A stretch of DNA of 51,866 bases from Sphaeroforma arctica JP610 (GCF_001186125.1 NW_014040114.1:20526-72391), one strand, 5' to 3'; shown: positions 23,602-49,264, counted from the stretch's first letter. Translations and numbers: made by a program. Notes: generated from the letters alone by a model not told the origin.

Positions 23602-23727
23602 ATGACATCAGCATCTGCGATGTCTGATTCATGCGTCCAGGTACGCTCATCATCTGTCCATTGCAGTAGTTACTCCAGGGATCCATCACCTCGGATGGAC
23701 GGCCTGTCGTCGACTATCGACAAGAAC
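23602..23727 (-). pseudogene. Chromodomain at the integrase C-terminus of element B
   Basis: FLSIVDDRPSIRGDGSLE*LLQWTDDERTWTHESDIADADVI; the stop replaces the Tyr present in element A (EYLL). Fits I..R..G..EYLVxW...TW. Confidence 0.7.
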
Positions 23728-24919: not shown

Positions 24920-25325
24920 AGCTCATATCTTTGCGACTAATGTGACACCCCATGGGGTCTTGCCGCAAGCTTTCTTGCCCTCTGTGAGGAACGTGTTGTT
25001 AAATTTTTCCACTAGCATCGGGTCTTCTGCTAGTAAAGACAAAAAATTTGGAACCCACGAGGCATTGGGGTAGTATGGTACACATATCGTGATGCTAGTT
25101 GTCACTTCAATGACTTTGTCAAGGACATTAGGTATGAGTCCCCATGATGGATTCGCCCATACATTAACTTCTTGCGACCATTTTTGTTTTAGCGCATTCT
25201 GTTCTTTGGTGTAGTATTTATCTGTGTGCGCATTGTGTGCTGATGCAAACAGATCTACTGTGAACTTCCCAGACCCTCGTTCCGCTTATTGGTAGAATCT
25301 GGGATGTAACATATAGTCTATAGCC
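24920..25325 (-). pseudogene. Dam-like N6-adenine MTase domain in pol of element B
   Basis: DYMLHPRFY...GKFTVDLFASAHNAHTDKYYTKEQNALKQKWSQEVNVWANPSWGLIPNVLDKV...ICVPYYPNASW...KTPWGVTLVAKI. Confidence 0.85.
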
Positions 25326-27369
25326 GAGATGGTTATGGGCATGTTCGTTTCCAAGGTGGTGTACTCTTGGCTATTATGTGTTGCCTCATTCGCATGTTGT
25401 AATACTTTTGACTCTTTGTTACTAAAAGTATCTTCATGTAGACGTGACAACATATCTGCCATCTGGTTGTCCTTGCCTGAGACATGTATGATGGAGAAGT
25501 GGTGGTGGAACGTTTTTGTTATCCACTTGGCTAGCATTGGGTGTAACGTCTGTTGACTGTGCATTTGCGTGAGCGCTTTGTGATCTGTCCACAGTGTTAT
25601 GTCCCCCCCCTTTGATATATTCGGAGAAATGTTCCAGGCTATATACCAGTGCTAGTAGCTCTTTGGTATTTGTGCCATAGCGTTGTTGTGCTGGATTCAA
25701 GCCTTCTGAGAAGTAGAGAATGTCTCTTCTGACTCCATCAATGACTTGGAATAAACGCCCTCCTATGCCATAGTCACTAGCATCGTTCATAATTTTGAAC
25801 GGTACCCCATCAACAGGGTATGCTAGCGTCGCTGAACAAGCAATGGCTTCTTTGAGTTCTTCCCACTTCTTGATTAGTTTCGGTGTCCATAACATGGATG
25901 TGTTCTGGTTCATTTTTTCTTTCATTAGGTTCCGAAAGTGTTTCGTTGTGTGGGCAAAGTTGGGGACATGGTCTCGCATGTAATTTGCTAGTCCCACTGT
26001 TTTGTGCAGATCTCTTTTTGTTCTGGGTAGTGGCCAGTCCATCATTCTTTTCTGTTTCTCAGGGTTTGCTTTGAGGTCCTGTGTGGTGACTTTCACCTCA
26101 AGAATGTTGACCACTTTGACCGCAGAGGCACACTTGTTGTGATTGAGTCGGAAGTTCGTGCTGTTTAGTCGTTTGATTACTTCGCGAACTGTCTTGCGGT
26201 GTTCTTCTTCTGTAAAACTCGCAATGACTATGTCATCTACATACACTTGCACTCCTTTGATATCTATGAGCAGATTTGCCATGACTCTCAGGAATTGTGA
26301 TGTGAGTGAGTGTAGTCCAAACGGCGCCGACTTGAACGAGTATTGCGCTCCTCTCCACGAGAACGTGAAGAAGTGTTGGCTTGCTTCGTCTACTAGGAAG
26401 TGGCGAAACCCGCCTGTGAGATCGAGCTTTGAAAAAAACTGCGCCCCTTGTTGGTTGCGTAACACTTCCTTTATTTTTGGTAGCACAAACGTGTCTTGTT
26501 CATATTGGTAATTGATCTCACGTAAGTCTAGACAGGTCCTGACCTTTTTTGAGTAGACCTGTTTAGTCATGTTCACCTGTTGATAACAACGGTAGGTTCA
26601 CCGTTGTTGGCTTGTCGCGTTTGTATATATGGCCATCGTGAAGCCATCGTTGCACATTCTCATCTGTTTGTGGAATGTATTTGTGCGGAACAAAGTTGAC
26701 TTTAGCGTGCCTCATTTGTCTGAATTTGATTTAATTTGCAGGTACTGTGACTGTAGAGCCTGGTAGGTTGCAGTGAACGTCAGGAGGTGTATTCGCGTTG
26801 GTGTCCAGGAGGTCTGTAAGTGACTCTCTGAAACCTTCTTGTTCATACTCTGGGTCCTCTTCATGTGGTGTGAGGAGCGATTCCCATTTTGCATCTGTTG
26901 GTATTAGTGGATTGATTAAACCCGCTATATACATACCTATGTATGGTAGAATATCCATACCTAGAAGTATTGGTGTTTTCTTTTCAGGCAAGTCCAATAC
27001 TTCAAAACACTGAGAGGTCTTTCTGCCTCCGTAGGTAATGTCGCAAACTTCTGTTGATCCAGTGCGTTGTATTCTTGCATCTGTTGGTGCTAGTTGTATG
27101 TAACCCAGTTGCGCTCTGACAGAAAGATATAGTTCTGATCCTACAGTTTTGTCCATACATGAGCGTTGTGCGCCAGAGTCTACTAGTGCATTGTATGTGT
27201 TACCATTAATTTGTATGTCAATATATAACCGTTGGTCTCGTGGTGCAGGAAGTAACGATAAAGGTTGATAATTTATATCATTTGCATTTATTAACAACGT
27301 TTCTTCATATGTAAATCCATTGAGTCTGTCAGCCAGGTCAATCATGTTTGCTTCCCCCCGCCAGTGATT

Positions 27370-28758
27370 TCAGTGTTCATCACCTTCAGTGATGTCGTCC
27401 ACCTTGCCAGATGTGATAGACAGTCTTGCTATCTGCACATCTTTCTTGGCTTGTTGCGCAGCCTTCTTAGCTTGATTTGCTTTCTTCTCAAGACATTCGC
27501 TGTACCGATGTGGGAATGGCGATTCATGACAGTAGGGGCATGCACGCTCTTCACATGCTCATTTCTTTTTCTGTGTCTGGCCCCCTTGCTTGTGCTGGTT
27601 GTGCGTACCACTGTCTGTCCTGTGACGTTTGTTAGCGTTCATAGAGTTATCCTCCACCTGCGTGTTCGCCTGCGTATTGTTGCGTTTATTTGCATTGTTT
27701 GCAGCTCGCGTCTGATCCCTCAACATACGCTCAGCTTGTGTCACTGACGCTATTCGTATGTGTGTCTTAGTCATATTATGAAGCTTGGCATGTTCGATGT
27801 CAGACAAGTGTCCCTCACTTCCATCAGGTTACTTGTCTCCTTTGATTAGGATGTCCACTACTGATTGTAGTCCATGGTACTTCAGTGCTAAGTATTTTTG
27901 TACTTTGAGGGTTTGGAAGTGTATGGGTTCCTTGTCTGAGTTGCGATAACAAGCTCGGTGCGCACTTCAACATTCATCTTCTTATTCTGTATGTCATTGA
28001 TAAACTTATCCAATAGATAGTCTACTGGGTGCGATCTGAGTCGATCAATAATGATTCTATTGAACTGCTCAGGATCAGTGAAGTGCCTGGTTGTTTGTGT
28101 CTCAGAGTCTCTTATGATATTGAGAACTGCTTTGGTTTCTCCGTTGCGTCAGTGGAGTCTAATAGTCTTCTCACTAGTGCTGGATACTGACACAATGGCA
28201 TTGACGTTGCTAAGAATAGATCACTACATTGTGTAGTGAACTCTATGATATCCTCACAATTCTCTAATCTATAGAAACTTTCCTTCGGCATTTTAGGAAA
28301 CTCTGAAGTTTTGAGTAATTTCTTAAGAGAGGGTTCATTTATCTGGTCGCCTAACCGGGAACGCATGAGCTCTAGCTCACTAATGCACAGACTGATTTGA
28401 ATAAGCTTGTCTTCCTCATCATCACCGCAATCGTTGATCGCTAGATCGTATCGTCGTCTGAGCTCCGCATCCACTAGTGGCATGCGACGCTCTGGCTGTT
28501 GGTCATGTATGCCAACCATTATCTTATGTAGAGTCCGTATGGCCACCGGTGCAGTTTGTTCCAATTTGGATACAAACCGACTCACCAAAACAAAGTAGCC
28601 TTGACAGATGTTCTTGTTGCGATGGGTACCCCCGCTGGTGTGGGCTGGCCCGAGCTACTGCCTGGGCTTGCCTCCCCCATTGGGCTGGCTCCCACGTCAC
28701 CCGTGCCTTCACTACCCTCCCCTCCATCGTATACACTTGTTCTGGTTGCTGTTGGCAT
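27370..28758 (-). pseudogene. gag of element B (frameshifted)
   Basis: MPTATRTSVY start; CPYCHESPFPHRYSEC knuckle; homologous to gag of A and E. Confidence 0.78.
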
Positions 28759-29160
28759 TTTCAGAAGTCTGTGCGTATATGTGGGTGGTCGTGAATTATT
28801 AATGAAGACTAAGGTTACCTTGTGCGAAAGTGCGCGCTTCACCCCCCGTCTTTAGTAATAATACTTATAAAATAAAAAATTGTATTTGTTTTACTTACTG
28901 TTATAGTGTTGTCGATTCGCTGCACTTCCGCTGGAAGTGTTTACCGTGTTGTATGGCCCGGTAGCTTGTTGATTGATTCCCTGTATTTATGAGGGAGAAA
29001 AACTGTGTTTAATAATCAAGCTTATTCCGTCATGTGTGACGTCACTTGTTCTTATTCCGTCACGTGAGATTTATTGTCACTAATTTTATTCCGTCATGTG
29101 AGAATTATTTTCTCATGTGATTTTAATGAGATGTTCGGTCCTAGTGACGTCACTCTGGAA

Positions 29161-29289
29161 GATACCGAACTGTGTGTGTACCGAGCTGTGTCCTGTGCCG
29201 AACTGTGTCCTGTACCGAACTATGTTCTGTACCAAACTATGTTCTGTACCAAACCGTGTCCTGTACCGAACTGTGTTCTGTACCAAACT
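29161..29289. repeat. 17-bp tandem repeat (~7-8 copies, GTACCRAACTGTGTYCT) in the leader of element B
   Basis: Directly visible periodicity. Confidence 0.88.
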
Positions 29290-31099
29290 TATTAAAAAAA
29301 CAGTGATGCAATGTCATACACGGTTTATTTGTCCGAGATAACTGAATCGTTTGAGACTGCTCGTGTTGATCGATTTGTTTTGTGATCTGCTGATTGCAAT
29401 TTGATGGAATGTTCTGAACTTGTCAATACCTTTCTGCTGTTCTTTGTATGTTGTATACTCGGTCAGAATAATGCCCGTTCTTGTAATTGATATTGTGGGT
29501 TGGATTGTTCCTTATAACTCTTTTGTTGTGGGTTGGATTGTCCCCTATTACTTTGTGTGTGTTGGTTGATGACTATGTGTTAGTCCCAATTTGTTAGGTG
29601 ATTTCTTCAATCTGATTTTTCACCTATACTCCAGGATGTTGTGGTTTTGTAGGTTATATTACCGCTAGCCTATATGTGCGTGAGTAATGCTCTGTGTGTC
29701 TTATATCTATTGTTTGGTAATTGATTGATGGAGATGGCTATAGAGATGTGATTTCTCTGAGTGATTTCTTCGGGTGATTTGTCCGAAGAGACCGTGGGAA
29801 ACTGATTCCCGAAGCCTTTGTTTATTGTATGTGGTCTGTGTGTGTAGTGTTACTTCCCTTTCTTATTGCAAGTGTTTCTTGTGTGTGAATCCTATGCGTA
29901 TGTGCACGTGTTTATTGGTGTGATGTCAATGTCACTAGTGATTTGTCTCGATTTGACTGCTCCCTGCCTATTTCAATTGATCTTGGTAGCTGTTTGTACC
30001 CAAGCAGGACTTGGTTGCTGTGTGTATGCCTTGTCTGGTGTGGAGAAGCTCATGTGTTTCTGCGTTCTTGACACTATGTGTGTGTTCGCTTCTGAACAGT
30101 TAATTAAGCTGCGTGCCTTAAGACCTATGAATTGACGCTGTTGTTATTTTGTGATTGCTTTTTCTAGAGTAATATTTGTGAAGTTAATTACACAGCCACT
30201 GTCTTGTGCTTCTTGTGGGTGAATTGCCCAGCACCTTTAAGACTCTTGTGACTTGTCTGTTATCACCTTTGTTAGATCTGATTTGTCTGTCACTCGTGAC
30301 GCTTAACTTGTCTTTAAGTGATTTGTAGTGTCTAATTGCAGAAATGTTTACGCATGTTCCTATTAAGTCTTGCACCGTCCTTGGTTGTTAGCAAGCGTGT
30401 TGAACCGTAATACTTTTTTATTTGGATGAATGTATCCTTCTTAAGCGAATTGACCTAAGTAAATTGAATTTACATTCCCTTGATTGATCTTCTGTGTACT
30501 ATTGCTTATTGTACCGAACAGTCTAAACCTCTTATTGGGTTTATGGGCTTATGCCCTGTACTAGTTATTGTTTCTTATACATGGGTGTGCATTCTTCTAG
30601 CACTAATTCACTGCTTGTTCTGGTTACTATTTAGTATTGCCTGCTGCGTGTGTTATGGTGTGTGTAACGTGTGCGTGTTGTGCAGGGGTCCTTAATCTCC
30701 AAATATTTTCTTGTTCGAAAACTTAGAAAAACCCCAACATTGATGAATTAATGAATGTGACACTTCGTTTGTTTTTCACGCATCTTACGTCACTAAACAG
30801 CCTGTCACACCCTGTAACGTGTTCAGCTTACTTCTGAACACGTTTTCTTTACCTGGGTTGTTGTCCCAAGTCTCTTCTTCATCTTGAAGTCTTCTCTAGT
30901 CTGCCAAGCTGTTCTTTGTCTCCGGCTGTGACCCTTCTTTCTTCTTAGGTCGTTCCTTCTCCGGTTTCTTCTCAATAAAGCTTGTGTTTGGTGTTAGGTT
31001 GTTCTTCGTGACAGAAAATTACTCTATCTATCCTATTACACTTCGTTCAGTGTATGAGGATCCGTGTTGACTTATTGTAAGTAAGGATATTGTAAAAAA

Positions 31100-31424
31100 T
31101 GTAGAGTAGGGAGAGTAGCTGAAAGGTACGAGACAATAGGATACAATAGACCTCTTCTCAAGTACGGTTATCTCAGCTAGGAAAGTCCCCAGTCTGAGAG
31201 AACCGAACTGAGTCTTTATTTGTGTTTTCACTAGACTCAGGGGCTACTTGAGTGTTTCTCTCACACGCAGGAGTCCAGGTATATCTTACCGGTTCTATCA
31301 ATAATATTTCTGATGACTCTAATATCAGAAATATTCCAATACTAATTCCAAAACTCAGTATTTGATTATTCTGGGATTTGGGATTTGTATTGGCTTTTTG
31401 ATAATCTAATCCCCAGATGCGACA
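31100..31424 (-). repeat. 5' LTR of element B
   Basis: Minus strand TGTCGCATC...ACTCTACA, 325 bp. Confidence 0.95.
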
Positions 31425-31858: not shown

Positions 31859-32189
31859 TGTAGCATCTAGGGACCAGATTACCAAAAAGCCAATTCAAAT
31901 CCCAAAACTCAGAGTCATCAAATATTGAGTTTTGGAATTAAGAATCATATATTTCTGATATTAGAGTCATTAGAAATAATATCGGTAGGACCGGTAAGCT
32001 ATAGCAGGACTCCGCATGTGAGAGAAACACTCGAGTAGAAACCAGAGGATAGTGAATGATAAAACACAAATTAACACTCAGTTCGGTGCTCTCAGACTAT
32101 GGACTTTTCCTAGCTGCGACAACCGTACTTGAGAAGAGGTCTATTGTAACCTTTGGGTCGTACCTTTCAGCTACTCTTCATACTCTGCA
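31859..32189 (+). repeat. 3' LTR of element A
   Basis: TGTAGCATCTAG...ACTCTGCA, preceded by a G-rich tract and a 3' region homologous to B 23111-23560. Confidence 0.9.
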
Positions 32190-35085
32190 TGGCTTCTCTG
32201 AGTTCTTCCTACTTCTTTTTCAGTTCCGGTATCCATAACATAGATATATTTTAGTTTAGTTTGCCGTTCATTAAGTCACAAAAGTGTGTATTGGTGTGGG
32301 AAAGTTGCGGACATGGTCACGCATATAATTTGAACTGATAAACTTTGGTTTATGTCTCGAATTTGTGTATGAACTTGGTTGACTGGTTTAGTCTCCTTGG
32401 TTTATGGTTTTCGTGTTTTTTAAAATTTCATGAGTACGAGGTGCCAAAAACTCCTGGGCTTCTGGTTCTTATTTCGTCCTATAGACTTATATTGTGTGAT
32501 TGTACCGAACTGGTTTTGCATCTATGTTTGTACAGTATACCATGTGTTGCATTTGGTTTGTGTGCTTTCTGTCACTATGTAGTCTGTTATTATTAGCATT
32601 GATGTCTTGTTCAAGACCGCCTGTTGTTCTTGTGTACTGTGACGCTTGTGATTATTGTATTGTTATGCCTGTACTTCTATAGTGATTGGCGTTGTAGTTA
32701 AATTTAGCTCTTGTACTTTGAGTTATGCTGTACGTTATGTGTGTGGCTTCATGCTTCGTATATGTTTCTGATGTCTATGTTCTTGCGATTGTATATCGTC
32801 TTCTTGAACTTGTGTGTCTATGGACTGTTGTGTCTCTGGACTGTGGACTGTGTTCTTGTGATTGTGCTTGTTGATGCCACACTGAGGTGATTACGTACTC
32901 TATTGTGGTACTTTGTTGTCCATGGAGTGTGGATCTTGCCTCTTAACCTTGTGTACTATAATAGAGCTGGTGATTGTGGAGTACAATACAAGTTATTTCG
33001 TGTAGCGCTTGTGATCGTGGACTGCGACCCAAGTTTGTTTCTTGCTCTTCGATATTGACACATACTTTCTTTATAAATCGTTGCGTTTTGCTGGTCTATG
33101 TGATTCTATGTTCTGAATCTAATTTAACCGTTTGAAATCTTGAATGTTTGTGTCCATGAGTTGTGGAGTGTGTTCTCTTAGTCATTACTGTTGTTCACAC
33201 AACGTTTTTATGTGCACTTTATTCTTGTAAGGTGTGACCCTCGAGTGTGTGCTAGTCTTCCTAGATCTTACTGTGGCCAAACTTAAGCGTGAGGTGTACG
33301 CTATTGCTGGATGTCAATGTCCATGGATTGTGGACTGGGTTTTCAATTCTTAGATACGAGTGTATGGCTTGTGGTTGTGAAGTTCAACCCAAGTTACTTG
33401 TTCCCACTTTAACTTGAGGATTGTTACTTTGTGGTTTCCTCGTAGTTAGTGGTGATTTGATGGTGTAGGTGATTTTATAGTGTGAATCTGACGATTTCTT
33501 TGGTGTTTCTAAGCACGTTCGTGTGTGGTTATTTCATTATCTTTGTTAGTTTCTGTGCTTGTTGGACACTGGTCCTCTTTAAGTATCTGTATTCTGCCTT
33601 ATGATATTTCTCTTGGTATGAGATCGCACAATTTCTCCTCTGAGATGTTCAATTAGATGCTCACCATGTATGTGTGTGTCACCTGTTTGCTTGTTTCGTA
33701 CGAGTGGTTCTTTTATTGGCTTGACGCGTTTTGTGTGTTTAATTCGTGTAGTAATTTTAGTTGTATTGTGATTTGGTATATTTCTTCGTTCTACGATAAT
33801 GTATATTCGTTCTGCCCTGATGGGTGTGTACGTGAGAAATGTAGGCTTTTTGTGTCTGATTTGAGGTTAGTCTGTTGGTAAGTTAACTATTGTCTTGTTC
33901 ACGTATTGTGATGTGATATATGCTACGTTATTTTCTTACTTCGCTTCTCTTGTTACTATCCTTTAGTCTGATCACGTGTCTCGTCAGGTTCTATTTTGAT
34001 TCTCCGTGCTCATACTTCAGTTTGTTTTAAATGTAGCTTTGTGTTTCTTTGTTCTCTAGTTCTTCTAACTTAAGTTGATAATTCCTTAGTAGGATCTTTA
34101 TGGTATATTTTGTATTGTCTGCTCTTACTTAGTTGTGGTTCAATATGTACAATCTAAGAGTAGCATGTCCCAAACCCGTATTCGAGTGTTGTTGCAGGCA
34201 CCATGAATTCCTCTTTGCAATTCTACTGTGTTTTTGTCCTCTGTGTTTCTCCCTAGCCTCTCTGTAGTTGAGTGTTAGTTAGTCTGCGTACGTACAGAAC
34301 TTTTCTTGATAGTATTTATCTTATAATAATAAAAATGTATCACTGTGACACTTCCTTGAATTTTCTAGCTTCCCAACTTTGGTATTATCTCTATATTAAG
34401 GAAATTATCACTGTGTCACTTTTGTGTTTTTCTAGTGTCCCAACATAAACAATCAGTTGGGTACGCTGTTTCTAACACTTGTTTTGCTAGGGGTGCTTAC
34501 CTTGGATCACCATAGTCTTACTTACTTATTTTTTTTGCGTCCGCGTGATATCTCTGGACGAGCTTGGCTTCTTGGACACTTGTTTTTTTCGTTGAAGTTT
34601 CCCTTGTTCTTCCCTACTTCCTGTTGTGTTCTCCGTCCCTTACTTTTCTTGTTCCTCGTCTTCGATATCCACTAGTCTTCAAGTTATATCCTTCTAGTTG
34701 TGTGACTATTCTTAACTATACTAAGGAGCTGGTATGACATATTTGTGTATGTGTAAGTCGATTTACCGTGGTAAGGATACTGTTAAAAAAGTAGAGTTTG
34801 AGAGTAGCTCAAGTGCGAATCCTACAGCTCGGTAAAGTCTTAGGCTGAAGGACTCGCATTGAGTCTTTATCTGTGTTTAGTATTTTCTACACTAGACTCA
34901 ATATTTACTTAAGTGTTTCTCTCACACGCGGGAGCCCAGGTATCATCTACCGGTATTCCCGGTTCTATTTCTGATCACTCTATCATCAGAAATATTGGAT
35001 CCTAGATCCAAAACTCAGTATTTGATAATTCTGGGTTTTGGGTTTAGGATTGGCTTTTCTGATAATCTGGCCCCTGGATGCTACA
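32190..35085 (-). mobile_element. Truncated, internally deleted family-1 element 'D' (5' LTR ~34790-35085, long leader, short pol fragment)
   Basis: Diverged LTR ending GATGCTACA at 35085, followed on the minus strand by the family's post-LTR motif. 32190-32331 is homologous to B 25843-25990 (NYMRDHV region). Confidence 0.8.
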
Positions 35086-36483
35086 AAGACAGCCTCGTAC
35101 ACTGGGACAACCTCAAGAGAAGAAAAGAGCGCGCGAAGTACGTGCTTGTCCCTACTGTAAGATGACACCGACTTCACTTCGCTATAGCCGATATCCTATG
35201 AATACTGCAAATCAGATTAATGAGGCTGGTGAGCGTGCAAAGAGTGACGTGAAATTGGCACGACTCTCAAATATCACAGGGAAGGTAAAAAGAGCTAATA
35301 GATAGCGATGAGTCCCGAAACAACTGGTGGACGGAAGCAATTTTGATTGACCTGGCTGACAGGTTAAATGCTAATACAGATGAAGGAACGTTGTCAATAA
35401 ATGCGAATGATATAAATTACTAACCTTTATCCTTAATTTCCGCACCACGAGACCAAAGATCACACATTAACACACAAATAAGAGGCAATATATACAGGCC
35501 GCGCGTAAACTCAGGCGCACAACGCTCATGTATGGACAAAAGTATAGTATTTAAACTGTATTTATCAGTCAGAGCGTAACCAGGCCACATACAATTAGCT
35601 CTAATAGATGCGAGGATACAAAGAACATGGTCAACCGAGGTATGTGATACAAATACAGAGTTTCGAAGTGTCGGACCTACCAGACAAGAAGGTACCAATA
35701 CTTCTAGTTATGGACATCCGATCACACATAGGCATACATATCGCAGGATTAGAAAACCTACTTACATCATCAGATGAAAAGTTGGAGTCACTACTCACTC
35801 CACATGAGGAAGACCCAGAGCATGAATAAAAAGGATTCAGAGTCACTTGCAAACCTCTTTGAAACCAATGTAAATCTATCTCCTGTCAAACATTGCAACG
35901 TACCTGGCTCTAAAGTCCAGTGCCAGCAAATGAAATCAATGTGCGACAAATGAGGCATGTCAAAGTCAAATTTGTATCGCATAAACACATCCCACATACG
36001 GATGAAAAGTGCACAGGTGGCTCCTGATCGTCACATATACAAACGTACAACACCAATAACCGTGAGCTTGCCGTTTGTGACATGACCAATCAGGTCTTAT
36101 CAAGGAAGCACAAACATGTTTAGACCTACGAGAGAGTGATTACCAGTACGAGCAAGACATATTTGTGGCACCAAAAATAAAGGAAGTATTACATTATATA
36201 TAGGGAGCACAATAATTTAATGGTTCTACCATTCTCTAGTAGATGAAGCAATTTTTTTCCTCACATTCTCATGGAGAGGAGCGCAATCCTCATTTACGTC
36301 AGCACCATTTGGTCTTTACTCACTCATAGCACAATTCCAAGAGTCATGGTAAACTTGCTCATAGACACCAAAAGAATGCAGGGGTACGTGGATGACATGG
36401 TTATTGCAAGTCTCACAGACGAAGAACATCGCAAGACTGTACGTGATGTAATGAAACGATTTAACAGAGCGAACTTCCGACTC
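35086..36483 (+). mobile_element. Fragment of family-1 element 'E' (gag end, protease, partial RT)
   Basis: VRACPYCKMTP, IDLADRLN, VNSGAQRSCMD, ILLVMDI, SAPFGL and GYVDD, collinear with A and B; cut off by the C LTR. Confidence 0.87.
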
Positions 36484-37251
36484 TGTAATAGCCGGGCCTC
36501 CACATTAGACTCTAAGTGATAAACGTACTATTAAGTAGTACGTAATTTATAAACGTACTCTTAATAGTACGAAGAACTTAAGTTTCCTAAATGGTTTTTA
36601 ATGGTTTTATTAATTAATACCTTTTCCATTTTACATATCAGATATTTGGACGAGGCCATTAAAAGGCCCCAGTAAAATAACAAACATAAGAGTTGGTCTA
36701 GTTCTATTAATAGAACTATATTTACTTTCAAACTTTATTTATATCTGAATACTTCGGTAGCGAGATGGCTCAACCGAATATAGGTTTCTAGGGACTATTA
36801 ACGTTACCTAGTTGATCCTCCGATCAGCCAACCAGATGTGCCAGTCTGATGGAGGCTAAGTCGGTAATTCTTGATAAGTGGCAAGTTATTGGTTAAGACA
36901 ATAACTAAGGACATCAAGAGTAGTTTTCCTTTTTTAATTTATTTTTTCTAAAGATAGGATTTTATGAGTCTCTCAGATTCGCCCCAATGAAACATACCAT
37001 AGTTTCTAATAGAGCGACAACGAAACACTAAATAAAATCTCTTCGGCGGAAACAGTACTGAGAGGATTATATATAGGCAATGTCTCAGCCTCACAATCCC
37101 TCAGAGTATTGCTGTTTTGACGAGGCATACCTAACTTTACTAAAAATCTCATTTCGTTTATTTACTTTGATATATTCACCATACTTAGAATTTACTTGCG
37201 CGTTTATTTACTCTAAGGCGTTAATATCGCCTTAATAGACCGAATCTTACA
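36484..37251 (+). repeat. 5' LTR of element C
   Basis: Highly similar direct repeat of 42718-43486. Confidence 0.95.
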
Positions 37252-37378: not shown

Positions 37379-38330
37379 ATGACCAAGAAAGACAATACTC
37401 CTTCTAAGAAGCGTATAGCTGAAAAGAAGAAGATGGATAGAGAAACCGCTGCCGCTGCTGATGAATTTAACCGCACTGTAGCCGAAGCACTTGCCTCCGA
37501 CAATAATGGTCAACAGGACAATGCTTCAGTCAAGGATGTAGCCACTCCGATTAAGGATACTACTCCCACTGACAGAGCCCGATGGCCAACGATTGCCTAA
37601 ACTTCAAAGCTTGCATTTACGAAGCCAAGAAGTGAGACAAGGGACACGTCTTAAAACGCCCCAACCCATTCTTCTGACGAAAAATCCGAAAGAAAAGTTC
37701 CCAATTATAAGGGAGTCCCCAATTATAGGGGACAAGGACAAATCTCAGAAGGAACCTATATTGGAACCAGAAGAGGAGGCAAGCTCAAGTGGCAAACCCG
37801 AATCTACGTCGAGACTACAAAGCTAGCGCGCATAAGTAAGTTAATTACTGAAAACACTGATCATAAGAATCAGTTAGCTACCCTTATGAAAGACTTAACT
37901 GTTTAACATGTAGATCTATTGTATAGATCTGGGAAACATACACAGCACTTACGCGAGCATGTTTCTCCGGGCATTACTGAGGCCCTACAGACGTGGACAG
38001 AACGTCGACAGGCAATTACGCCCGAAGAACGTAAAGACTCGAGCGCTACACCTGTGGCATATGAGCCAGATGTGCTCAGCGTATCTATACCTTACGAGGT
38101 ACTACCACCATAACTTCAGGCTAATTACTCGCCTGTTCTGACACCCGGCCGTGAGTCACCCGTCCTTGAGGGTATTATGGACCCAGAGGCAGGTAGAAAT
38201 ACTTCGCCACTTTTACCCAATTGGGGTGACAATCGTCGGAAACCAGTTAAGACTGGGTATGTTATCCAGACGCATAAATCACCCAAGATTATAATACCAA
38301 CCACTATCCGAGGAACAGAGCACCGAAAGG
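37379..38330 (+). pseudogene. Putative gag-region ORF fragments of element C
   Basis: Lies just after the 5' LTR as successive plus-strand ORF pieces (MTKKDNTPSKK...); no diagnostic motif recognised. Confidence 0.45.
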
Positions 38331-38780
38331 NNNNNNNNNNNNNNNNNNNNNNNNNNNNNNNNNNNNNNNNNNNNNNNNNNNNNNNNNNNNNNNNNNNNNN
38401 NNNNNNNNNNNNNNNNNNNNNNNNNNNNNNNNNNNNNNNNNNNNNNNNNNNNNNNNNNNNNNNNNNNNNNNNNNNNNNNNNNNNNNNNNNNNNNNNNNNN
38501 NNNNNNNNNNNNNNNNNNNNNNNNNNNNNNNNNNNNNNNNNNNNNNNNNNNNNNNNNNNNNNNNNNNNNNNNNNNNNNNNNNNNNNNNNNNNNNNNNNNN
38601 NNNNNNNNNNNNNNNNNNNNNNNNNNNNNNNNNNNNNNNNNNNNNNNNNNNNNNNNNNNNNNNNNNNNNNNNNNNNNNNNNNNNNNNNNNNNNNNNNNNN
38701 NNNNNNNNNNNNNNNNNNNNNNNNNNNNNNNNNNNNNNNNNNNNNNNNNNNNNNNNNNNNNNNNNNNNNNNNNNNNNNNN

Positions 38781-41700
38781 GAATGATGGAAGGTGCTACA
38801 GTATTTACAAATATTGACCTTACATAAGGATACCATCAAATGCAGGTATATGAACCACATCGTAAATACTATAGTTTTACGTGGAAAGGTAAACAGCATA
38901 GGTTCAGAGGTGCACCTTTCGGGTTACACTCTTTACCAGCATTCTTCCAACAAGTAATGGAGGAAATTTTTGCAGACATGCCTAACGTGCAAGTCTATAT
39001 AGATGACATAGTCATCTTTTCTAAAACTAAGGGCGAACACGCCGCATTAGTCAGACGAGTCCTTAAGAGACTCAACGAGCAACACTTCAAGATTAACGAG
39101 AATAAATGCTACTTCGCAATGAACGAAATACAGCTCTTAGGCTACATATATCTGGGATCAAAATCGACCCCGGTAATGTAAAACAACTGTTAGATTGACG
39201 AACACCAACTACTGGAAGAGATGTTAACAGCATATGTGGGGTTGTAAACTTCTTTTCAGATGGAGTACCACACTTAGCTGACTACCTTAAACCTTTTGGA
39301 CACTTAAGATGTCATAAAGGCAAACTAGGAGACTTGTGAACTAAAGAGCGTGATGACGCATTTAAGGCGCTCAAACACGCAGTCCACCAAGCCCCTGTTG
39401 TACAAGGACCGGTCGATGGCGTGCCGTTTGAAATAGCAACGGACACCTCCGACTTAGCCTTAGGAGGAGTATTATATCAGGTTATAGACAACAAACCTAG
39501 ATATATACAATTCTTTAGTCGAGCAATGAATGCTTCACCATTGAATTATCCAACTGTTAAACAAAAGTTATTAGTCATAGTGGCAGCTTCACCACACTTC
39601 CGAGATTATTTATATGGAACAGCATTTACGCTGATGTGTGATCAGAAATCTCTTCAATATATGAAAGAGATGAAACCCGACTCACAATTACTGAGTCGCT
39701 GGCATGATAAAATATCAAAGTTTCATTTTGACATAAAACATCTGCCAGGAATACATAACCATTTACCGGATATGCTATCACGCTTCGTACCGGACTTTAA
39801 TAAATCCGTATGTGAGTTACTAGCCACTGACTGGAAATGTAATCCCAGGTGGTTTGAACTGGCTCAAAAGATATTTGGGCCACATATGTTTGCTGCACAT
39901 CATAATTCACAACTATCGAATTACAGGACTTTAAATCATCCTTTGGGAGACGCCTTTCAAATAGACCTCTCCAAACATAATGGGTGGGCTAATCCACCCT
40001 GGCAGTTAATTGCCCAGCTATTAAATTATGGTCACATACATAAAGCTACCATCACGTTGTGTTGCCCATTACGGAGTAAAGATCCATGACTCAATACATT
40101 AATAAGCATGATACAATGTGAGCCAATATATTTAAATAGGGAGGTATATACTTTCCTATATCAGGGTACCCGAGCCGTCCAGAAGACGCCCTGGAGACAT
40201 ACTATAATATGTCGTGTAGGTCCCATTGGAACAACCAAATGGACCTCTTCTGAGACCTTCCTTAACAAGGTCAAAGAATCAGGGATTCCACTCTCTACCC
40301 AATTGAACGCTAAGCAGTTCAAAGACAACACGGCACTTGAAGTTTGTGCACAAGAAATACAATATACTAATGACACTACTGTTAAGAAGCGTCAGTCTCT
40401 AGCTAGGACTCTTTTTAATAACATAGAGTCCAAGCCCGAGGTCTTTCAAGCCCTATTTTTAAAGGGATTAATGAAAGATAATGCTGAAGCGTATACACAT
40501 ATAATGCGACTATCAAATAAGTCATTTCTATCAAACGCACATGAGTGCACTTATGACACTCATGCAAAAGAAGGACAGGAGTCTGGAAACACTACAGACT
40601 TAGAGACCACGCAAGTGGATTCTCAACACCCTACCTTTATTCTGGAGGAGCAGAATGATGAAAACATTCTTGCTTGGCTGACGCAAAACCATAAGCTGAA
40701 GCACCAGAATGTATTAGACGCACTTAAAAATGCTAAGCGAAATGGGATCGCGCACCCTAAGCTGACAACTTTAGTTGACAGAGTATATCAGTCATGAACA
40801 GGCTGTAATCTCAACCAGATCAAGCGCTACGGGTTCGCACCGCTTATGAGTGTGACCGAAGATGTTCCATGGCGCAGGGTCGTCATTGATCTGGTTGACC
40901 TGCCCACGTCCGAGCACACAGGCGACCGTTACGTATGCCACTTCTTTGATGTGGCGTCACGGTTTATCTTGCTCTATCCATTAAAGGATAAGAATACGCA
41001 GACCGTGGCAGAATTATGTTGCTAAGTCTTTGCTGACCACGGGTGGCCAGGTATTATGTGCACTGATAACGGTAGTGAGTTCTGCGACGACGTAATGGAA
41101 TTGCTAGTACTCGTATCAGGCATATGCCATAAGAGAGGTGTGCCATATAAGCCGCAAACNNNNNNNNNNNNNNNNNNNNNNNNNNNNNNNNNNNNNNNNN
41201 NNNNNNNNNNNNNNNNNNNNNNNNNNNNNNNNNNNNNNNNNNNNNNNNNNNNNNNNNNNNNNNNNNNNNNNNNNNNNNNNNNNNNNNNNNNNNNNNNNNN
41301 NNNNNNNNNNNNNNNNNNNNNNNNNNNNNNNNNNNNNNNNNNNNNNNNNNNNNNNNNNNNNNNNNNNNNNNNNNNNNNNNNNNNNNNNNNNNNNNNNNNN
41401 NNNNNNNNNNNNNNNNNNNNNNNNNNNNNNNNNNNNNNNNNNNNNNNNNNNNNNNNNNNNNNNNNNNNNNNNNNNNNNNNNNNNNNNNNNNNNNNNNNNN
41501 NNNNNNNNNNNNNNNNNNNNNNNNNNNNNNNNNNNNNNNNNNNNNNNNNNNNNNNNNNNNNNNNNNNNNNNNNNNNNNNNNNNNNNNNNNNNNNNNNNNN
41601 NNNNNNNNNNNNNNNNNNNNNNNNNNNNNNNNNNNNNNNNNNNNNNNNNNNNNNNNNNNNNNNNNNNNNNNNNNNNNNNNNNNNNNNNNNNNNNNNNNNN

Positions 41701-42598
41701 NNNNNNNNNNNNNNNNNNNNNNNNNNNNNNNNNNNNNNNNNNNNNNNNNNNNNNNNNNNNNNNNNNNNNNNNNNNNNNNNNNNNNNNNNNNNNNNNNNNN
41801 NNNNNNNNNNNNNNNNNNNNNNNNNNNNNNNNNNNNNNNNNNNNNNNNNNNNNNNNNNNNNNNNNNNNNNNNNNNNNNNNNNNNNNNNNNNNNNNNNNNN
41901 NNNNNNNNNNNNNNNNNNNNNNNNNNNNNNNNNNNNNNNNNNNNNNNNNNNNNNNNNNNNNNNNNNNNNNNNNNNNNNNNNNNNNNNNNNNNNNNNNNNN
42001 NNNNNNNNNNNNNNNNNNNNNNNNNNNNNNNNNNNNNNNNNNNNNTCCCGATGCTACTGTATTAACATCTAAATGGATAAGTCCATATATAATCTCTGTA
42101 GCAGACACTAAAGGTGGAACGTACGAGGTAAATAACCCCGATGGTTCTAGTGCGCTTAATATAGGCAGAAGTCGTATTCCGACTACAGAGATTATACTCG
42201 CAAGAAGACATGACTCTAATGCCCCTCTTGATCGTTCTGAATTTAAAGACAATATATGGAGAACGGATAAGGGAGGCTATACATACTATCGTACACGCTT
42301 TATAGACGGTACAATAGTTGAGTTGACTTCAGATGCTTTTAATAATCAAGACTATTTAAAAGCCTTTAATCGAAAATGGCGTAAACGCCTGCATAAGTCA
42401 CAAGCTGAAAAATATAGCATGTTTCCATCGTCTGAAGGCACGGAAGTTAAACCTTATCCACCTACAGCATTTATCCCGAGTTTAAATGCTCATCCTTCAT
42501 ATTTGCTTAAGACACTGAAGCGTAAGAAACGTCCAGTCGACCACCACGGACCTACTGGACCTAAGCCCAAAACTCACAGGGTGACCGAGAACGCTTAA
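38781..42598 (+). pseudogene. pol of element C: RT, RNase H, Dam-like MTase, integrase
   Basis: NIDLT*GYHQ, FRGAPFGL, YIDD (RT); IATDTSDLALGGVL, CDQKSL, NHLPDMLSR (RH); NPPW (MTase); H..H/C..C, VIDLVD, CTDNGSEF, KWISPY (IN). Confidence 0.92.
39829..40221 (+). pseudogene. Dam-like N6-adenine MTase domain in pol of element C
   Basis: DWKCNPRWF...FGPHMFAAHHNSQLSNY...DAFQIDLSKHNGWANPPWQLIAQLL...ITLCCP...P*L..L...KTPWRHTII; in frame with RNase H; NPPW codons at 39991-40002. Confidence 0.88.
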
Positions 42599-42717: not shown

Positions 42718-43486
42718 TGTAATAGCCGGGCCTCCACATTAGACTCTATGTTATAAACGTACTCTTAAGCAGTACGTAAATTATAAACGTACTCTTAATA
42801 GTACGAGGAACTTAAGTTTCCTAAATGGTTTTTAATGGTTCTATTAATTAATACCTTTTCCATTTTACATATCAGATATTTGCACGAGGCCATTAAAAGG
42901 CCCCAGTAAAATACCAAACATAAGAGTGGGTCTAGTTCTATTAATAGAACTATATTTACTTTCAAACTTTATTTATATCTGAATACTTCGGTAGCGAGAT
43001 GGCTCAACCGAATATAGGTTTCTAGGGACTATTAACGTTACCTAGTTGATCCTCCGATCAGCCAACCAGATGTGCCAGTCTGATGGAGGCTAAGTCGGTA
43101 ATTCTTGATAAGTGGCAAGTTATTGGTTAAGACAATAACTAAGGACATCCAGAGTATTTTTCCTTTTAATTTTTTTTTCTCTTCTTCTTCTAAAGATAGG
43201 ATTTTATGAGTCTCTCAGATTCGCCCCAATGAAACATACCATAGTTTCTAATAGAGCGACAACGAAACACTAAATAAAATCCCTTCGGCGGAAACAGTAC
43301 TGAGAGGATTATATATAGGCAATATATATAATCCCTCAGAGTATTGCTGTTTTCACGAGGCATACCTAACTTTACTAAAAGTCTCATTTCGTTGATTTAC
43401 TTTGATATTTTCACGATACTTAGAATTTACCAACGCGTTTATTTACTCTAAGGCGTTAATATCGCCTTAATAGACCGAATCTTACA
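42718..43486 (+). repeat. 3' LTR of element C
   Basis: Direct repeat of 36484-37251. Confidence 0.95.
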
Positions 43487-43813
43487 ACCACAAATTGCAG
43501 ATCTAACTCAAAATCCGTGTCGGGGTTCTGTTCATCCATTCCTCCCGACTCTAATACATAGTCTACTACAGTGTGCCCGTTACCAATCTCCCCACTATCA
43601 CCAGCTGCTTCCTCTTAGTTCCCAGCATAGTCATCACCTTCGTCGGAATCTTCAATTAAATCATTATGCACCTTTTTCTTTGCCGCACTATCACCCTTCT
43701 CAGCACTTGCACCATCACCCTTCTCATCAATTGCACCATTACTCTCCGCCTCATTATCCCCCTTTTCAGCACTTGAGTTTCCTGTCTCTTGCGCACTATT
43801 ATTGTCCACACCT

Positions 43814-45659: not shown

Positions 45660-46682
45660 TCTGTCACGACATCAGGAAGAACTCAACAAAACGTTGGTCC
45701 AACAAGGAGATCGCGGCAATGGCCCGGCGCCAATACTATTACCAACTGGTTATGGGTAAACCGCCAACCTCAAACCGAGACATAGCCAGACACGACAGCT
45801 TCAATCGCTGCTTCGAGTCTACACCAATCCGGCTCTGTGCTATGATTGTAACGAATACGTACATGTTCACATTGCTCGACTACCGCACCGACGGCTGTCT
45901 CTGCCCTGTCTGCCCCGGTAACCACAAGTTCACTACCAGCCACTTTACCTGCATCCAACAACTGATTCGACGCATCCTGGTAGGCCCGAAACTGCCGCCC
46001 ATTGGCCCAGACCTCCTTCAGCAATTACAGGAGTGCCACGACTTCCACGGTATCTGAACCCTCCACGAACACATTGTATCTTTTCTCCAGCATGTTGAAG
46101 AATCACCGTACCCTCACCCGTCCCTGACACATCAACATATGTTCCCCATACCCCGGCTAATCACGCTGTTGAAGTACTGCTTCCAAATATCGGTTCAAAC
46201 CAAATCATTGCGCTTGTTGGTTCCGACTATGATACTTCCGATCCAGGCCAGTCAACACATACCGAATTCATCCGTGGTCTGGTGCGGCATTGGCTTACCC
46301 CCATCCTTGCTTCTCGACCGGATTATGACGGATAACCTGGTCCTTCTCGGTATTTCGTACTCTGCACTAACCCATTCCGCGGCACTACACGGCGCAGACC
46401 TGATCCGTACCACAGAGGTGGGTACTCTACTTAGTAGGTCAGAAAGCGAATATATGGAACATTCGATAGTAACAGTGTTTTGTCAACACCGGCCCGAATT
46501 GACTCAGCACATATCTTCCATTGTCGACTCACTTGGCCCAAGCTTCAAACGGGAATTTACTGACCACTTCTTCCCATCAATCTTTCCTGAACCACTACAG
46601 CGACTATGAGAGCCATACCATATGTTCATACATTGTATCATACATACTTGCCATTTTTGAAATAAATAATATTATCCCTACA
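45660..46682 (+). mobile_element. 5'-truncated non-LTR retrotransposon (LINE) copy 1: zinc knuckle plus C-terminal extension
   Basis: Homologous to 48250-49264; contains CPVCPGNHKFTTSHFTC. Confidence 0.8.
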
Positions 46683-47385
46683 GCAATCCAGCACCTTTGC
46701 CCCACCTGATTTAGCTTGTACAGGTGTGCTAGCTACAACACCTAAGTTGTTGGCGACGTCTTTCATTACCGTATGCGAATCAGCTAGATATATAATCGTT
46801 GCTAGTCACTTGAATGCTTTCAAAATAAACTGCGTCATACAGCTCTACCCGTGTGTATGAGTTATCGACAGTTCTGTACTGTTTTTCTCTCTCTCGCAAT
46901 TTTATACCAGATATTGCTTTTGTGGATCTCCTAACACACCAGCCAAAGCCACGCACAGCATCTGATATTGTGTTGATGCGCTCATTATCTACAGTGCTAA
47001 TTGTAACTATAGTAATACTTTCTGTATGTGCGTATATACTAGCGCGAATAGCAGAAGTACTTCTAGGAGACTTGAGCGCACGTAGTCTCTCTGTGATATG
47101 TACACGAGATTTCTTAGCCGACGAACGAGCAGATGGGGGTACGCTCTACATTTCCAATAACTCTTTTTCCCGGCCGTCGCCCACGCCTCGTTGTATCATC
47201 CACCGCAAGCCCATCACAGTCGCACTTGCATCGTTTACATGCACTGTTTCACTCTCCACAACGTTACCTTTTATGATTATAGGTACACTCATCACAGGTA
47301 TCCTGTGGTGTGCAATTACAAGTCGGCATATCCGACTTTTACCCGACTTTCACCTAATCACTAACACGCATTAAATTACCATTCA

Positions 47386-49264
47386 ATGGCCAACGTCTGT
47401 CTGGACATTACTAAGGCATACGAAAAGGTTGCTCTCCCGCGCTTGTGGGTACTATTGCGCCACGCTGGAATGCCCGAAAACTGGATCAACTGCCTCCGCG
47501 CGCTATTTGAAAGGGACCCTACCCGAGTTACATACCGCGGCATGCTCTCCTATCTTTTTCATAGAAACAATGGCATTCTACAAGGCTCAATCGTTGGCCC
47601 CCAGCTCTTTATTATCTACATGGATTCTTTGGCTGTCACACTAGCACAATTCCGGCCCAAGCTCTTCCGCTTTTATTTATTTGTCGACGACACACGGATC
47701 CAAGGCCCCCAACCGGTTCCGCTCCAGCCCTTTTTAGACGACATTGATGCTTGGGGACGCAAATCTGGCCTCGAACAGGGTTTCATCAAACCCCGAGTAC
47801 GATCTACCAACTTGCGACACGCGGTGCCAAGCCTCCGTATAAGTGGTGACATCTTATCCACGGCTACATATGGCCTGAACATTATTGCCTGGGCTTCACC
47901 TATATGGAAGGATGCGCTGGACCTCTTGTTTGAGCGCTATAATTCAGCACTCATTTGAGCAGCAGCCATCATAACGGGCACCAAATACCCTAGGTTTCCC
48001 AAATATCAAACCAACTTACTCCATTTTTGTGGCCTGCTCCTCACGCGAGCATTCGCAGACTACCTCGGAGGTTGCCTGGGACTGCAACTCGACTCAATGG
48101 CCAGCACAAAACCACTCACCTTCTGACGCAACCAGCCTGGGTCCACGACAAACCCTCACTGCGCTTCCCGTACAGTATCTATGCCCATTTGAAGACTGTA
48201 TACAAAACCACGGACGGGCGTACACCAGACCATGTAGCCCTCCGCCGACGATGTGACGACATTAAAAAGAATTCAACGAAATACTGGTCCAACAAGGAGA
48301 TCGCGGCAATGGCCCGGCGTCAATACTATTACCAATTGGTCATGGACAAACCGCCAACCTCAGATCGGGACAAAGCCAGACACAATAGCTTCAACCGCTG
48401 CTTCGAGCCTACACCAATACGTCTCTGTGCTATGATTATAACAAATACGTACATGTTCACATTGCTCGACTACCGCACTGACGGCTGTCTCTGCCCTGTC
48501 TGCCCCGGTAACCACAAGTTCACTACCAGCCACTTTACCTGCATCCAACAACTGATTTGACGCATCCTGGTAGGCCCGAAACTGCCGCCCATTGGCCCAG
48601 ACCTCCTTCAGCAACTACAGGAGCGCTATGACTTCCATGGTATCTGGACCCTCCACAAACACCTTGGATCTTTTCTCCAGCATGTAGAACAACCCCTGTA
48701 CCCACACCCGTCTCTGACATATCAACAGATGTTTCCTATACCCCGTCTAATCACGCTGTTGAAGTACTACTTCCAAATTTCGGTCCAAACCAATTCATCG
48801 CGCCTGTTGATTCCGCCTATGATACTTCCAATACAGGCAAACCAGCACATACCGAGTGCATCCGTGGTCTGATGTGGCATCGGTTTACCCCCAACCTCGC
48901 TTCTCAACCGAATTATGACGGATAATCTGGTCCTACTTGGCATTTCGTACTCTGCACTAACCCATTCCACAGCACTACATGATAAAGACCCGATCTGAAC
49001 CACAGAGGTGGGTACGCAGTTTAGTAGGTCAGAAAGCGAATACGTGGCACACTCGATGGTGTCAGTTTTTTGTAAGCACCGGCCTGAATTGACCCAGCGC
49101 ATATCCTCCATTGTCGACTCACTTGGTCCAAGCTTCAACAGGGAATTTACTGACCACTTCTTCCCATCGATCTTCCCCGAACCAGTACAACGGCTATGAG
49201 AGCCATACCATATGTACAGACATTGTAACTTAACTCCTTTGAAATAAATAATATTAACCCTACC
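47386..49264 (+). mobile_element. Non-LTR retrotransposon (LINE) copy 2: partial RT, zinc knuckle, C-terminal extension
   Basis: CLDITKAYEKV, GILQGSIVGPQLFIIYMD and LFVDD are non-LTR RT motifs; downstream C-x2-C-x9-H-x2-C; internal deletions and stops. Confidence 0.88.

What the first reader, a model, noticed from the sequence alone, without database searches (positions are those of the whole stretch)
39829..40221. A second, distant Gypsy family carries the same MTase at the same position
Seen: element C has LTRs with no visible similarity to family 1 (768 vs 325 bp) and a diverged RT/RH. It still encodes DWKCNPRWF..FGPH-MFAAHHN..DAF..WANPPWQLI..TLCCP in frame with RNase H. It also shares the tail TFL..G....KTPW..T....G with family 1. 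Inference: one ancient acquisition retained under selection across diverged families, not a recent accidental capture. In this copy the residues equivalent to TVD before (L/M)FA appear deleted, so this copy is probably inactive.
Basis: partly seen in the sequence, partly recalled or inferred. Interest (0 to 1): 0.85.

Follow-up and report, generated by a model that had tools for sequence, protein, structure and literature searches.

The report
Second methylase-carrying Gypsy family, dead copy
This is a broken copy of a Gypsy-type jumping gene with an adenine-methyltransferase-like domain between RNase H and integrase; it likely belongs to a lineage already described in a 2026 preprint in single-celled relatives of animals, so it adds a divergent family rather than a new kind of element.

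Summary
Observation confirmed. Element C (768-bp LTRs, RT 49% identical to family 1) has a Dam/DIRS-type N6-adenine methyltransferase-like domain in frame after RNase H and before a DDE integrase. It scores 78 bits on a family-1 profile (best shuffle 7) and is predicted to fold like phage N6A-MTases and PCIF1. This copy is dead: a three-codon loss in the SAM-binding motif and a stop inside the domain. Both lesions are private to it; other copies in public runs read H-T-I-D-M-F-A and Trp, and variation among them is mostly synonymous (9 of 15 sites). The design is already in print. A May 2026 preprint describes DAM-LTRs, including an ichthyosporean lineage in Sphaeroforma arctica, whose protein is the closest named relative of element B's domain (79%). 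This scan also noted DAM-Gypsy elements in other genomes. A single acquisition is likely but not shown: C's best matches and C-terminal half point to family 1, but my small tree was unresolved (AU p about 0.3). 'Same position' is weak evidence, because DIRS donors also carry the domain right after RNase H. Small extras: about 110 additional linker residues in C and a faint chromodomain in family 1.

The parts
36484..37251 (+). Element C 5' LTR (768 bp, TG...CA)
   Evidence: 734 matches / 25 mismatches to the 3' LTR
37379..38330 (+). Degenerate region at the gag position (stops, no Pfam match); protease and RT N-half not visible (N gap 38331-38780 follows)
   Evidence: gag identity inferred from position only
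38786..39145 (+). C-terminal part of reverse transcriptase (YIDD at 38996-39007), one stop at 38825; frameshift follows near 39146-39159
   Evidence: Pfam RVT_1 E 5.7e-24; 49% to P0002
39340..39783 (+). Gypsy-type RNase H, ending in LSR
   Evidence: Pfam RT_RNaseH E 5.6e-25; 40% to P0002, no hit to 2 DIRS proteins
39829..40221 (+). Dam/DIRS-type N6-adenine methyltransferase-like domain (the finding)
   Evidence: 78 bits vs family-1 profile; AF2 pLDDT 66; Foldseek phage N6A-MTases TM 0.66-0.70, PCIF1/CAPAM TM 0.63
39877..39894 (+). SAM-binding motif region GPH^MFA; three codons missing in this copy only
   Evidence: alignments; loose ends and 9-gap contigs in 4 of 4 runs
39991..40002 (+). Catalytic motif NPPW, intact
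40087..40089 (+). In-frame TGA private to this copy (Trp in about 99% of laid depth in all 4 runs)
40150..40194 (+). Tail TFL..G..A..KTPW shared with family 1 in residues and spacing
40222..40668 (+). 149-aa linker between MTase and integrase zinc finger (about 40 aa in family 1); no known domain
   Evidence: covered by family contigs
40669..41157 (+). Integrase zinc finger and core (two stops), cut by N gap 41160-42045
   Evidence: Pfam rve E 4.1e-10; 26% to P0002
42047..42598 (+). End of pol (integrase tail; possibly a very degenerate chromodomain-like stretch and basic patch)
   Evidence: similarity to family-1 tail not significant
42718..43486 (+). Element C 3' LTR (769 bp), preceded by a purine-rich tract
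24926..25318 (-). Family-1 MTase domain of element B (comparison)
   Evidence: Pfam Dam E 3.5e-13; 79% to S. arctica SARC_00333
21116..21507 (+). Family-1 MTase domain of element A, split over three frames (comparison)
   Evidence: tblastn

Best explanation
Element C is a decayed copy of a Ty3/Gypsy LTR retrotransposon family whose pol carries a DIRS-type N6-adenine methyltransferase-like domain between RNase H and integrase; it likely shares one old capture with family 1 (A/B) and likely belongs to the published ichthyosporean DAM-LTR lineage. Shown here: architecture, homology, predicted fold, intact NPPW, the lesions private to this copy, and intact motifs with mostly synonymous variation in other family-C copies. 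Inferred history: template switching placed the RH-adjacent MTase of a DIRS element behind a Gypsy RNase H once, and the lineage then split into families with unrelated LTRs (MT 35-37% identical, on a par with RH 37%). Inferred mechanism (the preprint's model, untested here): the domain travels in Pol with RT and IN, binds SAM, and would put N6-methyladenine on the element's own cDNA or RNA-DNA intermediate. Host AMT1 would then maintain the mark and keep new insertions in permissive chromatin. My odds: DAM-LTR identity 0.95; single origin with family 1 about 0.75; self-methylation mechanism about 0.4.
For: Architecture. Homology: 78 bits vs shuffle maximum 7; C to P0002 89.7 bits, best DIRS 53.5, best phage 22.7. 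Fold. Tail with identical spacing in C and family 1, two indels away from the 6 DIRS rows; C-half 38.8 vs 4.5 bits. Domain identities C vs P0002: RT 49, RH 37, MT 37, IN 26%, so the MT is not anomalously close or far. Family keeps the motifs: (loose ends reading H-T-I-D-M-F-A in 4 of 4 runs, a T-V-D variant in one run; Trp at the stop in 99% of depth). 9 of 15 polymorphic MT sites are synonymous vs 0.21-0.29 expected (p 0.001-0.012), while 4 of 11 sites where this copy differs from nearly all others are synonymous (p 0.18-0.40). Host link: nearest named protein to B is S. arctica SARC_00333, 79%; intact 1288-aa PR-RT-RH-Dam-IN pols exist. Preprint (whole main text read): ichthyosporean DAM-LTR clade bs 97% across Pirum, Abeoforma and Sphaeroforma; DAM-LTR insertions richer in 6mA and more expressed.
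Against: Trees unresolved: the best tree put C beside DIRS with unstarred support 67/86; the C+family-1 clade was not recovered, though not rejected. Columns C shares only with DIRS (19) outnumber those shared only with family 1 (15), and the N-half scores 30.9 vs 28.0. The outgroup is only 6 DIRS rows from two related groups. No C-family protein was found in 2 of 2 database searches. No RT tree against Dam-less Gypsy elements was built. The polymorphic vs copy-private contrast is not significant (Fisher p 0.43), and contig variants are not independent events. A-vs-B third-position excess is weaker in MT (26 vs 17 mismatches) than in RT (59 vs 23) or IN (76 vs 33). No catalytic activity has been shown: the preprint's E. 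coli assay was negative. Host identity rests on B's relative, not on a host gene.
Confidence: 0.62

Rival explanations
1. Independent capture: family C took its MTase from a DIRS donor separately from family 1. The identical position follows from donor architecture (MT directly after RH), and the shared tail comes from related donors.
For: DIRS MT starts 5 residues after the RH end in L001, L003 and L009 (L006 also 5 by eye, its value of 148 was a pattern miss), vs 15 in C and 38 in family 1. The best ML tree joins C with DIRS (67/86). The N-half of C is DIRS-like (GPHT-D, NPR; 30.9 vs 28.0 bits). The preprint reports at least four independent DIRS-to-LTR transfers.
Against: The C-half is far closer to family 1 (38.8 vs 4.5 bits) with shared indel spacing. 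C's top four BLAST hits are family 1. RT is 49% identical. The preprint finds the ichthyosporean DAM-LTRs monophyletic (bs 97%) across three genera.
Confidence: 0.2
2. Same history, different job: the domain acts on or binds RNA (PCIF1/CAPAM-like cap or template binding), or is a SAM-binding scaffold, and does not methylate the integrated DNA.
For: Best solved-structure match is human cap-specific adenosine methyltransferase PCIF1/CAPAM (TMq 0.63, E 7.9e-3). A DIRS MT (L006) hits Pfam PCIF1_WW at E 4e-4. Iyer et al. (PMC4738411, passages) place DIRS MTases in the PCIF1 clade and suggest they are inactive RNA binders. The preprint's E. coli DNA-methylation assay was negative, and the preprint does not mention PCIF1 (0 occurrences).
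Against: Phage DNA N6A-MTases match better in BFVD (TMq 0.66-0.70, E 4-9e-4). No sequence-level relative of the domain came up in PDB, so PCIF1 may win there by default. NPPW and the SAM motif are intact in both families. The preprint reports 6mA enrichment on DAM-LTR insertions.
Confidence: 0.3
3. Assembly chimera of a Gypsy RT/IN with a DIRS fragment, or neutral hitch-hiking of a dead domain.
For: C has two N gaps and no target-site duplication, so its two LTRs may come from different insertions. No single listed contig spans the 2374-bp core.
Against: RH-MT-IN is on one gap-free stretch in one frame. Thousands of family contigs cover every bin, and individual contigs cross the RH/MT and MT/linker joints. 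Intact family-1 pols have the same order. Synonymous excess in MT.
Confidence: 0.03

Closest known systems
Ichthyosporean DAM-LTR lineage (Fernandez-Moreno et al., bioRxiv 10.64898/2026.05.21.726589; whole main text read, figures and supplements not seen)
   Same: Ty3/Gypsy-type pol with a DIRS-derived Dam domain and NPP triplet; probable host genus (nearest named protein S. arctica SARC_00333, 79% to B).
   Different: Family C is far from the family-1 sequences found (MT 31-37%) and has about 110 extra linker residues and 768-bp LTRs. This copy has no Pfam Dam hit, so a Pfam E<1e-5 screen would miss it. Family 1 shows a faint chromodomain although the preprint says the lineage lacks one. Whether C is in their tree could not be seen.
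DIRS1-like tyrosine-recombinase retrotransposons (RT-RH-MT; loci L001-L009)
   Same: Homologous MT (26-32% to C) at the same place after RNase H; same motif I and NPP[W/Y].
   Different: C has Gypsy RT/RH, a DDE integrase and direct LTRs; DIRS have a tyrosine recombinase. The tails differ by two indels.
Phage Dam-like N6A-MTases (Pfam PF05869, phrog_111)
   Same: Fold (TM 0.66-0.70) and motifs; B matches 379 phage records at E<=0.01.
   Different: Stand-alone enzymes; C's copy has only 2 hits, at E 3.
PCIF1/CAPAM cap-specific m6Am methyltransferase
   Same: Best solved-structure match (TMq 0.63, prob 1.0).
   Different: Only 16% identity, E 7.9e-3; PCIF1 has WW and helical domains absent here and acts on mRNA caps (recalled).

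Membership tests
Ty3/Gypsy LTR retrotransposon | Direct LTRs with TG...CA ends | tested here: met
   36484-37251 and 42718-43486
Ty3/Gypsy LTR retrotransposon | Domain order RT-RH-IN with DDE integrase | tested here: met
   Pfam RVT_1, RT_RNaseH, rve in this order; for the family-1-based profile the top PDB hit is Ty3 Gag-Pol
Ty3/Gypsy LTR retrotransposon | Aspartic protease before RT | not testable with these tools
   N gap 38331-38780 in C; present in B and P0002/P0003
Ty3/Gypsy LTR retrotransposon | Target-site duplication of the insertion | tested here: not met
   Left GACTC, right ACCAC; right flank does not continue the interrupted family-1 RT. B has a 4-bp TCAC duplication. This speaks to this copy or its assembly, not to the family.
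DIRS1-like element | Tyrosine recombinase instead of integrase; DIRS-type RT/RH | tested here: not met
   rve integrase present; RT 49% to Gypsy family 1 vs 25-26% over about 50 aa to DIRS; no RH hit to DIRS. N gaps not inspected.
DAM-LTR (preprint definition) | Dam domain detected by Pfam at E<1e-5 in an LTR-element pol | tested here: inconclusive
   B, P0002, P0003 pass. This broken C copy has no Pfam hit, though it is homologous by custom profile and fold. No intact C sequence was at hand to score.
DAM-LTR (preprint definition) | Conserved Asn-Pro-Pro triplet followed by an aromatic residue | tested here: met
   NPPW at 39991-40002; only a synonymous difference listed there in other copies
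Ichthyosporean DAM-LTR clade | DAM domain groups in the clade with Pirum, Abeoforma and Sphaeroforma elements | tested here: inconclusive
   Closest hits are family 1, including S. arctica SARC_00333; trees unresolved; Pirum and Abeoforma sequences not available
Ichthyosporean DAM-LTR clade | Ichthyosporean host | tested here: inconclusive
   Inferred from the 79% match of B to an S. arctica protein; no host gene was identified in the window
Ichthyosporean DAM-LTR clade | No chromodomain | tested here: inconclusive
   P0002 1211-1257 weak Pfam Chromo (E 0.015, 15.6 bits, cut-off 25.1), none in P0003, B tail or C tail
Ichthyosporean DAM-LTR clade | Insertions enriched in 6mA and expressed | not testable with these tools
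   needs modified-base calls; only contigs were available
Active N6-adenine methyltransferase | SAM-binding motif I with acidic residue (T-x-D-x-F-A) | tested here: not met
   Missing in this copy; present in other family-C copies
Active N6-adenine methyltransferase | Catalytic activity | not testable with these tools
   The preprint's E. coli assay was negative for other DAM-TE domains

The most novel reading that the evidence does not exclude
Family C is a second, independent DIRS-to-Gypsy capture (or a very deep branch) in the same host. It is abundant and was missed by Pfam-based screens, so it may sit among the preprint's 'DAM-lacking' controls. Its extra ~110-residue module after the MTase supplies the target-recognition part that eukaryotic DAM domains lack, making it the best candidate for finally showing activity, possibly on RNA or RNA-DNA hybrid like PCIF1.
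Probability: 0.1. Interest if true: 0.6.

Novelty: new member of a known kind. Interest (0 to 1): 0.27.

Why it matters
The substrate and purpose of retrotransposon Dam domains remain open: the only assay so far was negative. Two families in one genome, about 35% identical in the domain and both keeping motif I and NPPW, support long retention under selection. They give a second, divergent test case for the idea that these elements mark themselves with the host's 'active' 6mA signal. If intact family-C copies fall below Pfam thresholds, the published DAM-LTR vs other-LTR methylation contrast may be understated. The kind of element itself is not new.

Tried and rejected
No whole genome is held for the window, so no genome-wide copy survey was possible. 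Protein database searches with the C MTase found no scoring relative among 2 and 38 candidates; this is weak evidence. The profile search of 1.84 billion representatives never ran (queue full at all 10 tries), so broad DIRS and DAM-LTR sampling is missing. IMG/VR scans: three found nothing; one gave 6 distant RT loci at 27-29%, useless for monophyly. PDB sequence search with the MTase profile: 1 chance hit at E 1.8. The first fold with 4 sequences failed (pLDDT 42) and was not used. VIA-align searches were not run. Linker 40222-40668: no Pfam, no meaningful PHROG (E 0.05-0.07), Atlas best 0.78. C tail as a chromodomain homologue of the family-1 tail: 25 of 1000 shuffles scored as high and hhalign probability was 0.25%; not claimed. 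ApT or GATC enrichment in LTRs: none (AT o/e 0.90-1.02). No tRNA gene in the window; PBS not identified. Expression: no RNA holder listed. Summed contig depth is not used as a copy number. Tree rows left out: element A (frameshifted in three pieces), 3 of 9 DIRS loci (L002, L005, L007, near-duplicates), and L015 in the second tree. Literature: 5 searches; 'DAM-LTR' occurs in 1 paper; none seen describing family C as such.

Full report
1. What is there. The window is eukaryotic, microsatellite-rich DNA with three N gaps and a nest of decayed LTR retrotransposons. Self-BLAST and tblastn with an intact relative resolve family 1 (about 325-bp LTRs): A (+, LTRs 14369-14693 and 31859-32190), B (-, 22786-31424, inserted in A's 3' end, 4-bp TCAC duplication) and further fragments, including a pol piece at 35343-36483. 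Element C begins inside the RT of that piece. C has LTRs at 36484-37251 and 42718-43486 (734 matches, 25 mismatches) with no similarity to family-1 LTRs. Between the N gaps, 38781-41159 holds the RT C-half (Pfam E 5.7e-24), RNase H (5.6e-25), the finding, a 149-aa linker and an rve integrase (4.1e-10). RH, the finding, the linker and IN share one frame.

2. The domain is real. C 39829-40221 has no Pfam hit, while B's equivalent hits Dam PF05869 at E 3.5e-13. Against a profile of four family-1 domains C scores 78.0 bits (best of 1000 shuffles 7.0), against six DIRS domains 47.0, and against five phage Dams 2.1. An AlphaFold2 model from an 11-row alignment (pLDDT 66, pTM 0.64; residues 20-40 under 50) matches phage DNA N6-adenine methyltransferases in BFVD (4 hits at E<=0.001, TM 0.66-0.70). 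In PDB it matches human PCIF1/CAPAM first (TM 0.63, E 7.9e-3; no hit at E<=0.001). The Atlas gives unnamed eukaryotic clusters at 0.92-0.93, then Dam (0.85) and PCIF1_WW (0.82) clusters. NPPW is intact at 39991-40002.

3. Dead copy, conserved family. This copy lacks three codons in motif I and has stops at 38825, 40087, 40795 and 41023 plus a frameshift near 39150. Public runs hold the family: 20 of 24 listed rows from 7 studies; 21,028 contig records were laid in run X1, and all 30 bins were covered in 4 of 4 runs. In all 4 runs, loose ends at 39884-39886 supply the missing codons (H-T-I-D-M-F-A; a T-V-D variant in X8). One X1 contig of 134 letters covers 125 positions with 9 gaps. The stop at 40087 reads Trp in about 99% of depth. 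The stops at 38825 and 41023 read sense in about 99% of depth, and the one at 40795 in 63-76% across the four runs. Of the 26 listed sites in the domain, 15 are polymorphic among other copies and 9 of these are synonymous (expected 0.21-0.29 by transition weighting; p 0.001-0.012). Eleven are near-fixed differences from this copy, and 4 of these are synonymous (p 0.18-0.40). The direct contrast is not significant (Fisher p 0.43), the list is filtered at 8% share, and contigs are not independent events, so this is moderate evidence for purifying selection. In A vs B, third-position excess is weaker in MT (21/17/26 mismatches by codon position) than in RT (31/23/59) or IN (47/33/76).

4. One capture or two? 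For one capture: C's best matches are family 1 (89.7, 86.3, 72.0, 63.5 bits vs 53.5 for the best DIRS). The C-terminal half scores 38.8 bits on family 1 vs 4.5 on DIRS, with the same indel spacing. Identity to intact P0002 is RT 49, RH 37, MT 37, IN 26%, as expected from joint descent. Against, or neutral: the N-half scores 28.0 vs 30.9; diagnostic columns are 15 for family 1 vs 19 for DIRS. Both IQ-TREE runs (17 and 16 rows) left C, family 1 and DIRS unresolved, the best tree joining C to DIRS at 67/86, with the C+family-1 clade not rejected (p-AU 0.36, 0.31). The DIRS sample is 6 of the 9 metagenome loci and covers two related groups only. Those DIRS carry the MTase 5 residues after the RNase H end, vs 15 in C and 38 in family 1, so any capture by template switching would land at this position. 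I put a single origin at about 0.75.

5. How it likely works. Shown: the domain is part of Pol, and family C keeps both motifs. Inferred: it is made and packaged with RT and IN (general Gypsy biology, own knowledge). Its most likely role is the model of Fernandez-Moreno et al.: methylating adenines on the cDNA or RNA-DNA intermediate so that host AMT1 maintains 6mA and permissive chromatin at new insertions. Their support is correlational, and their E. coli assay was negative. The rival is a PCIF1-like RNA-binding or RNA-methylating role, as proposed for DIRS domains by Iyer et al. (PMC4738411, passages read) and consistent.

6. What is known. bioRxiv 10.64898/2026.05.21.726589 (whole main text read; figures and supplements not seen) claims the first DAM domains in LTR elements. 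[quoted passage not shown] The nearest named protein to B's domain is S. arctica SARC_00333 (79%), with two intact 1288-aa PR-RT-RH-Dam-IN proteins at 73%, so the window is likely from Sphaeroforma; no host gene confirmed this. A lineage spanning three genera already implies an old acquisition and several families per genome. Five literature searches showed no description of family C itself, but the supplements may include it. Earlier notes of this scan list 23 similar findings in at least 3 other genomes, citing the same preprint; none match this sequence.

7. What differs. C has about 110 more residues between MT and the integrase zinc finger, with no known match. This copy would escape a Pfam E<1e-5 screen. 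Intact family-1 P0002 has a faint full-length Pfam Chromo match at its C-terminus (E 0.015, below the cut-off; not seen in P0003; weak PDB chromodomain hits at E 0.1-0.3), although the preprint calls the lineage chromodomain-less. C lacks a target-site duplication and has two N gaps, so its LTRs may not be one insertion; this does not affect the core.

8. Verdict. Observation confirmed; interpretation partly supported; a new, divergent member of a kind described in 2026. Interest 0.27.

Noticed in passing
P0002 residues 1211-1257; window 23560-23760 (-) and 42227-42380 (+): Faint chromodomain-like C-terminus in family-1 pol (Pfam Chromo E 0.015, below cut-off; weak HP1/CDY hits), followed by a basic patch. 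The preprint says ichthyosporean DAM-LTRs lack chromodomains. The C tail resembles it by eye only.
   Followed up: partly
window 14369-43486: DAM-LTRs are nested in each other: B sits inverted in A's 3' end (4-bp TCAC duplication) and C starts inside the RT of another family-1 copy. This could be simple abundance or a preference for such clusters.
   Followed up: partly
window 40222-40668: 149-aa family-C linker between MTase and integrase (about 40 aa in family 1), covered by family contigs, no known match.
   Followed up: partly
window 19224-19917: Three tandem copies of a 231-bp unit inside A's pre-RT region; also near-tandem duplications at 11374-11727 and 15660-16130.
   Followed up: no
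window 45662-49263 and 47365-47955: A 1-kb direct repeat (88%) flanking a separate degenerate RT (Pfam RVT_1 E 2.2e-12) with no BLAST match to C's RT; probably another retroelement class.
   Followed up: no
L004:3673-4341: In a metagenomic DIRS element the tyrosine-recombinase region appears to contain a PHD-like zinc finger (C-x2-C...LLLCDCC...H..C...W.C..C; motif recognised from recall).
   Followed up: no
window 43478-43495: No target-site duplication around C, and the right flank does not continue the interrupted family-1 RT: possible recombinant or mis-scaffolded copy.
   Followed up: partly
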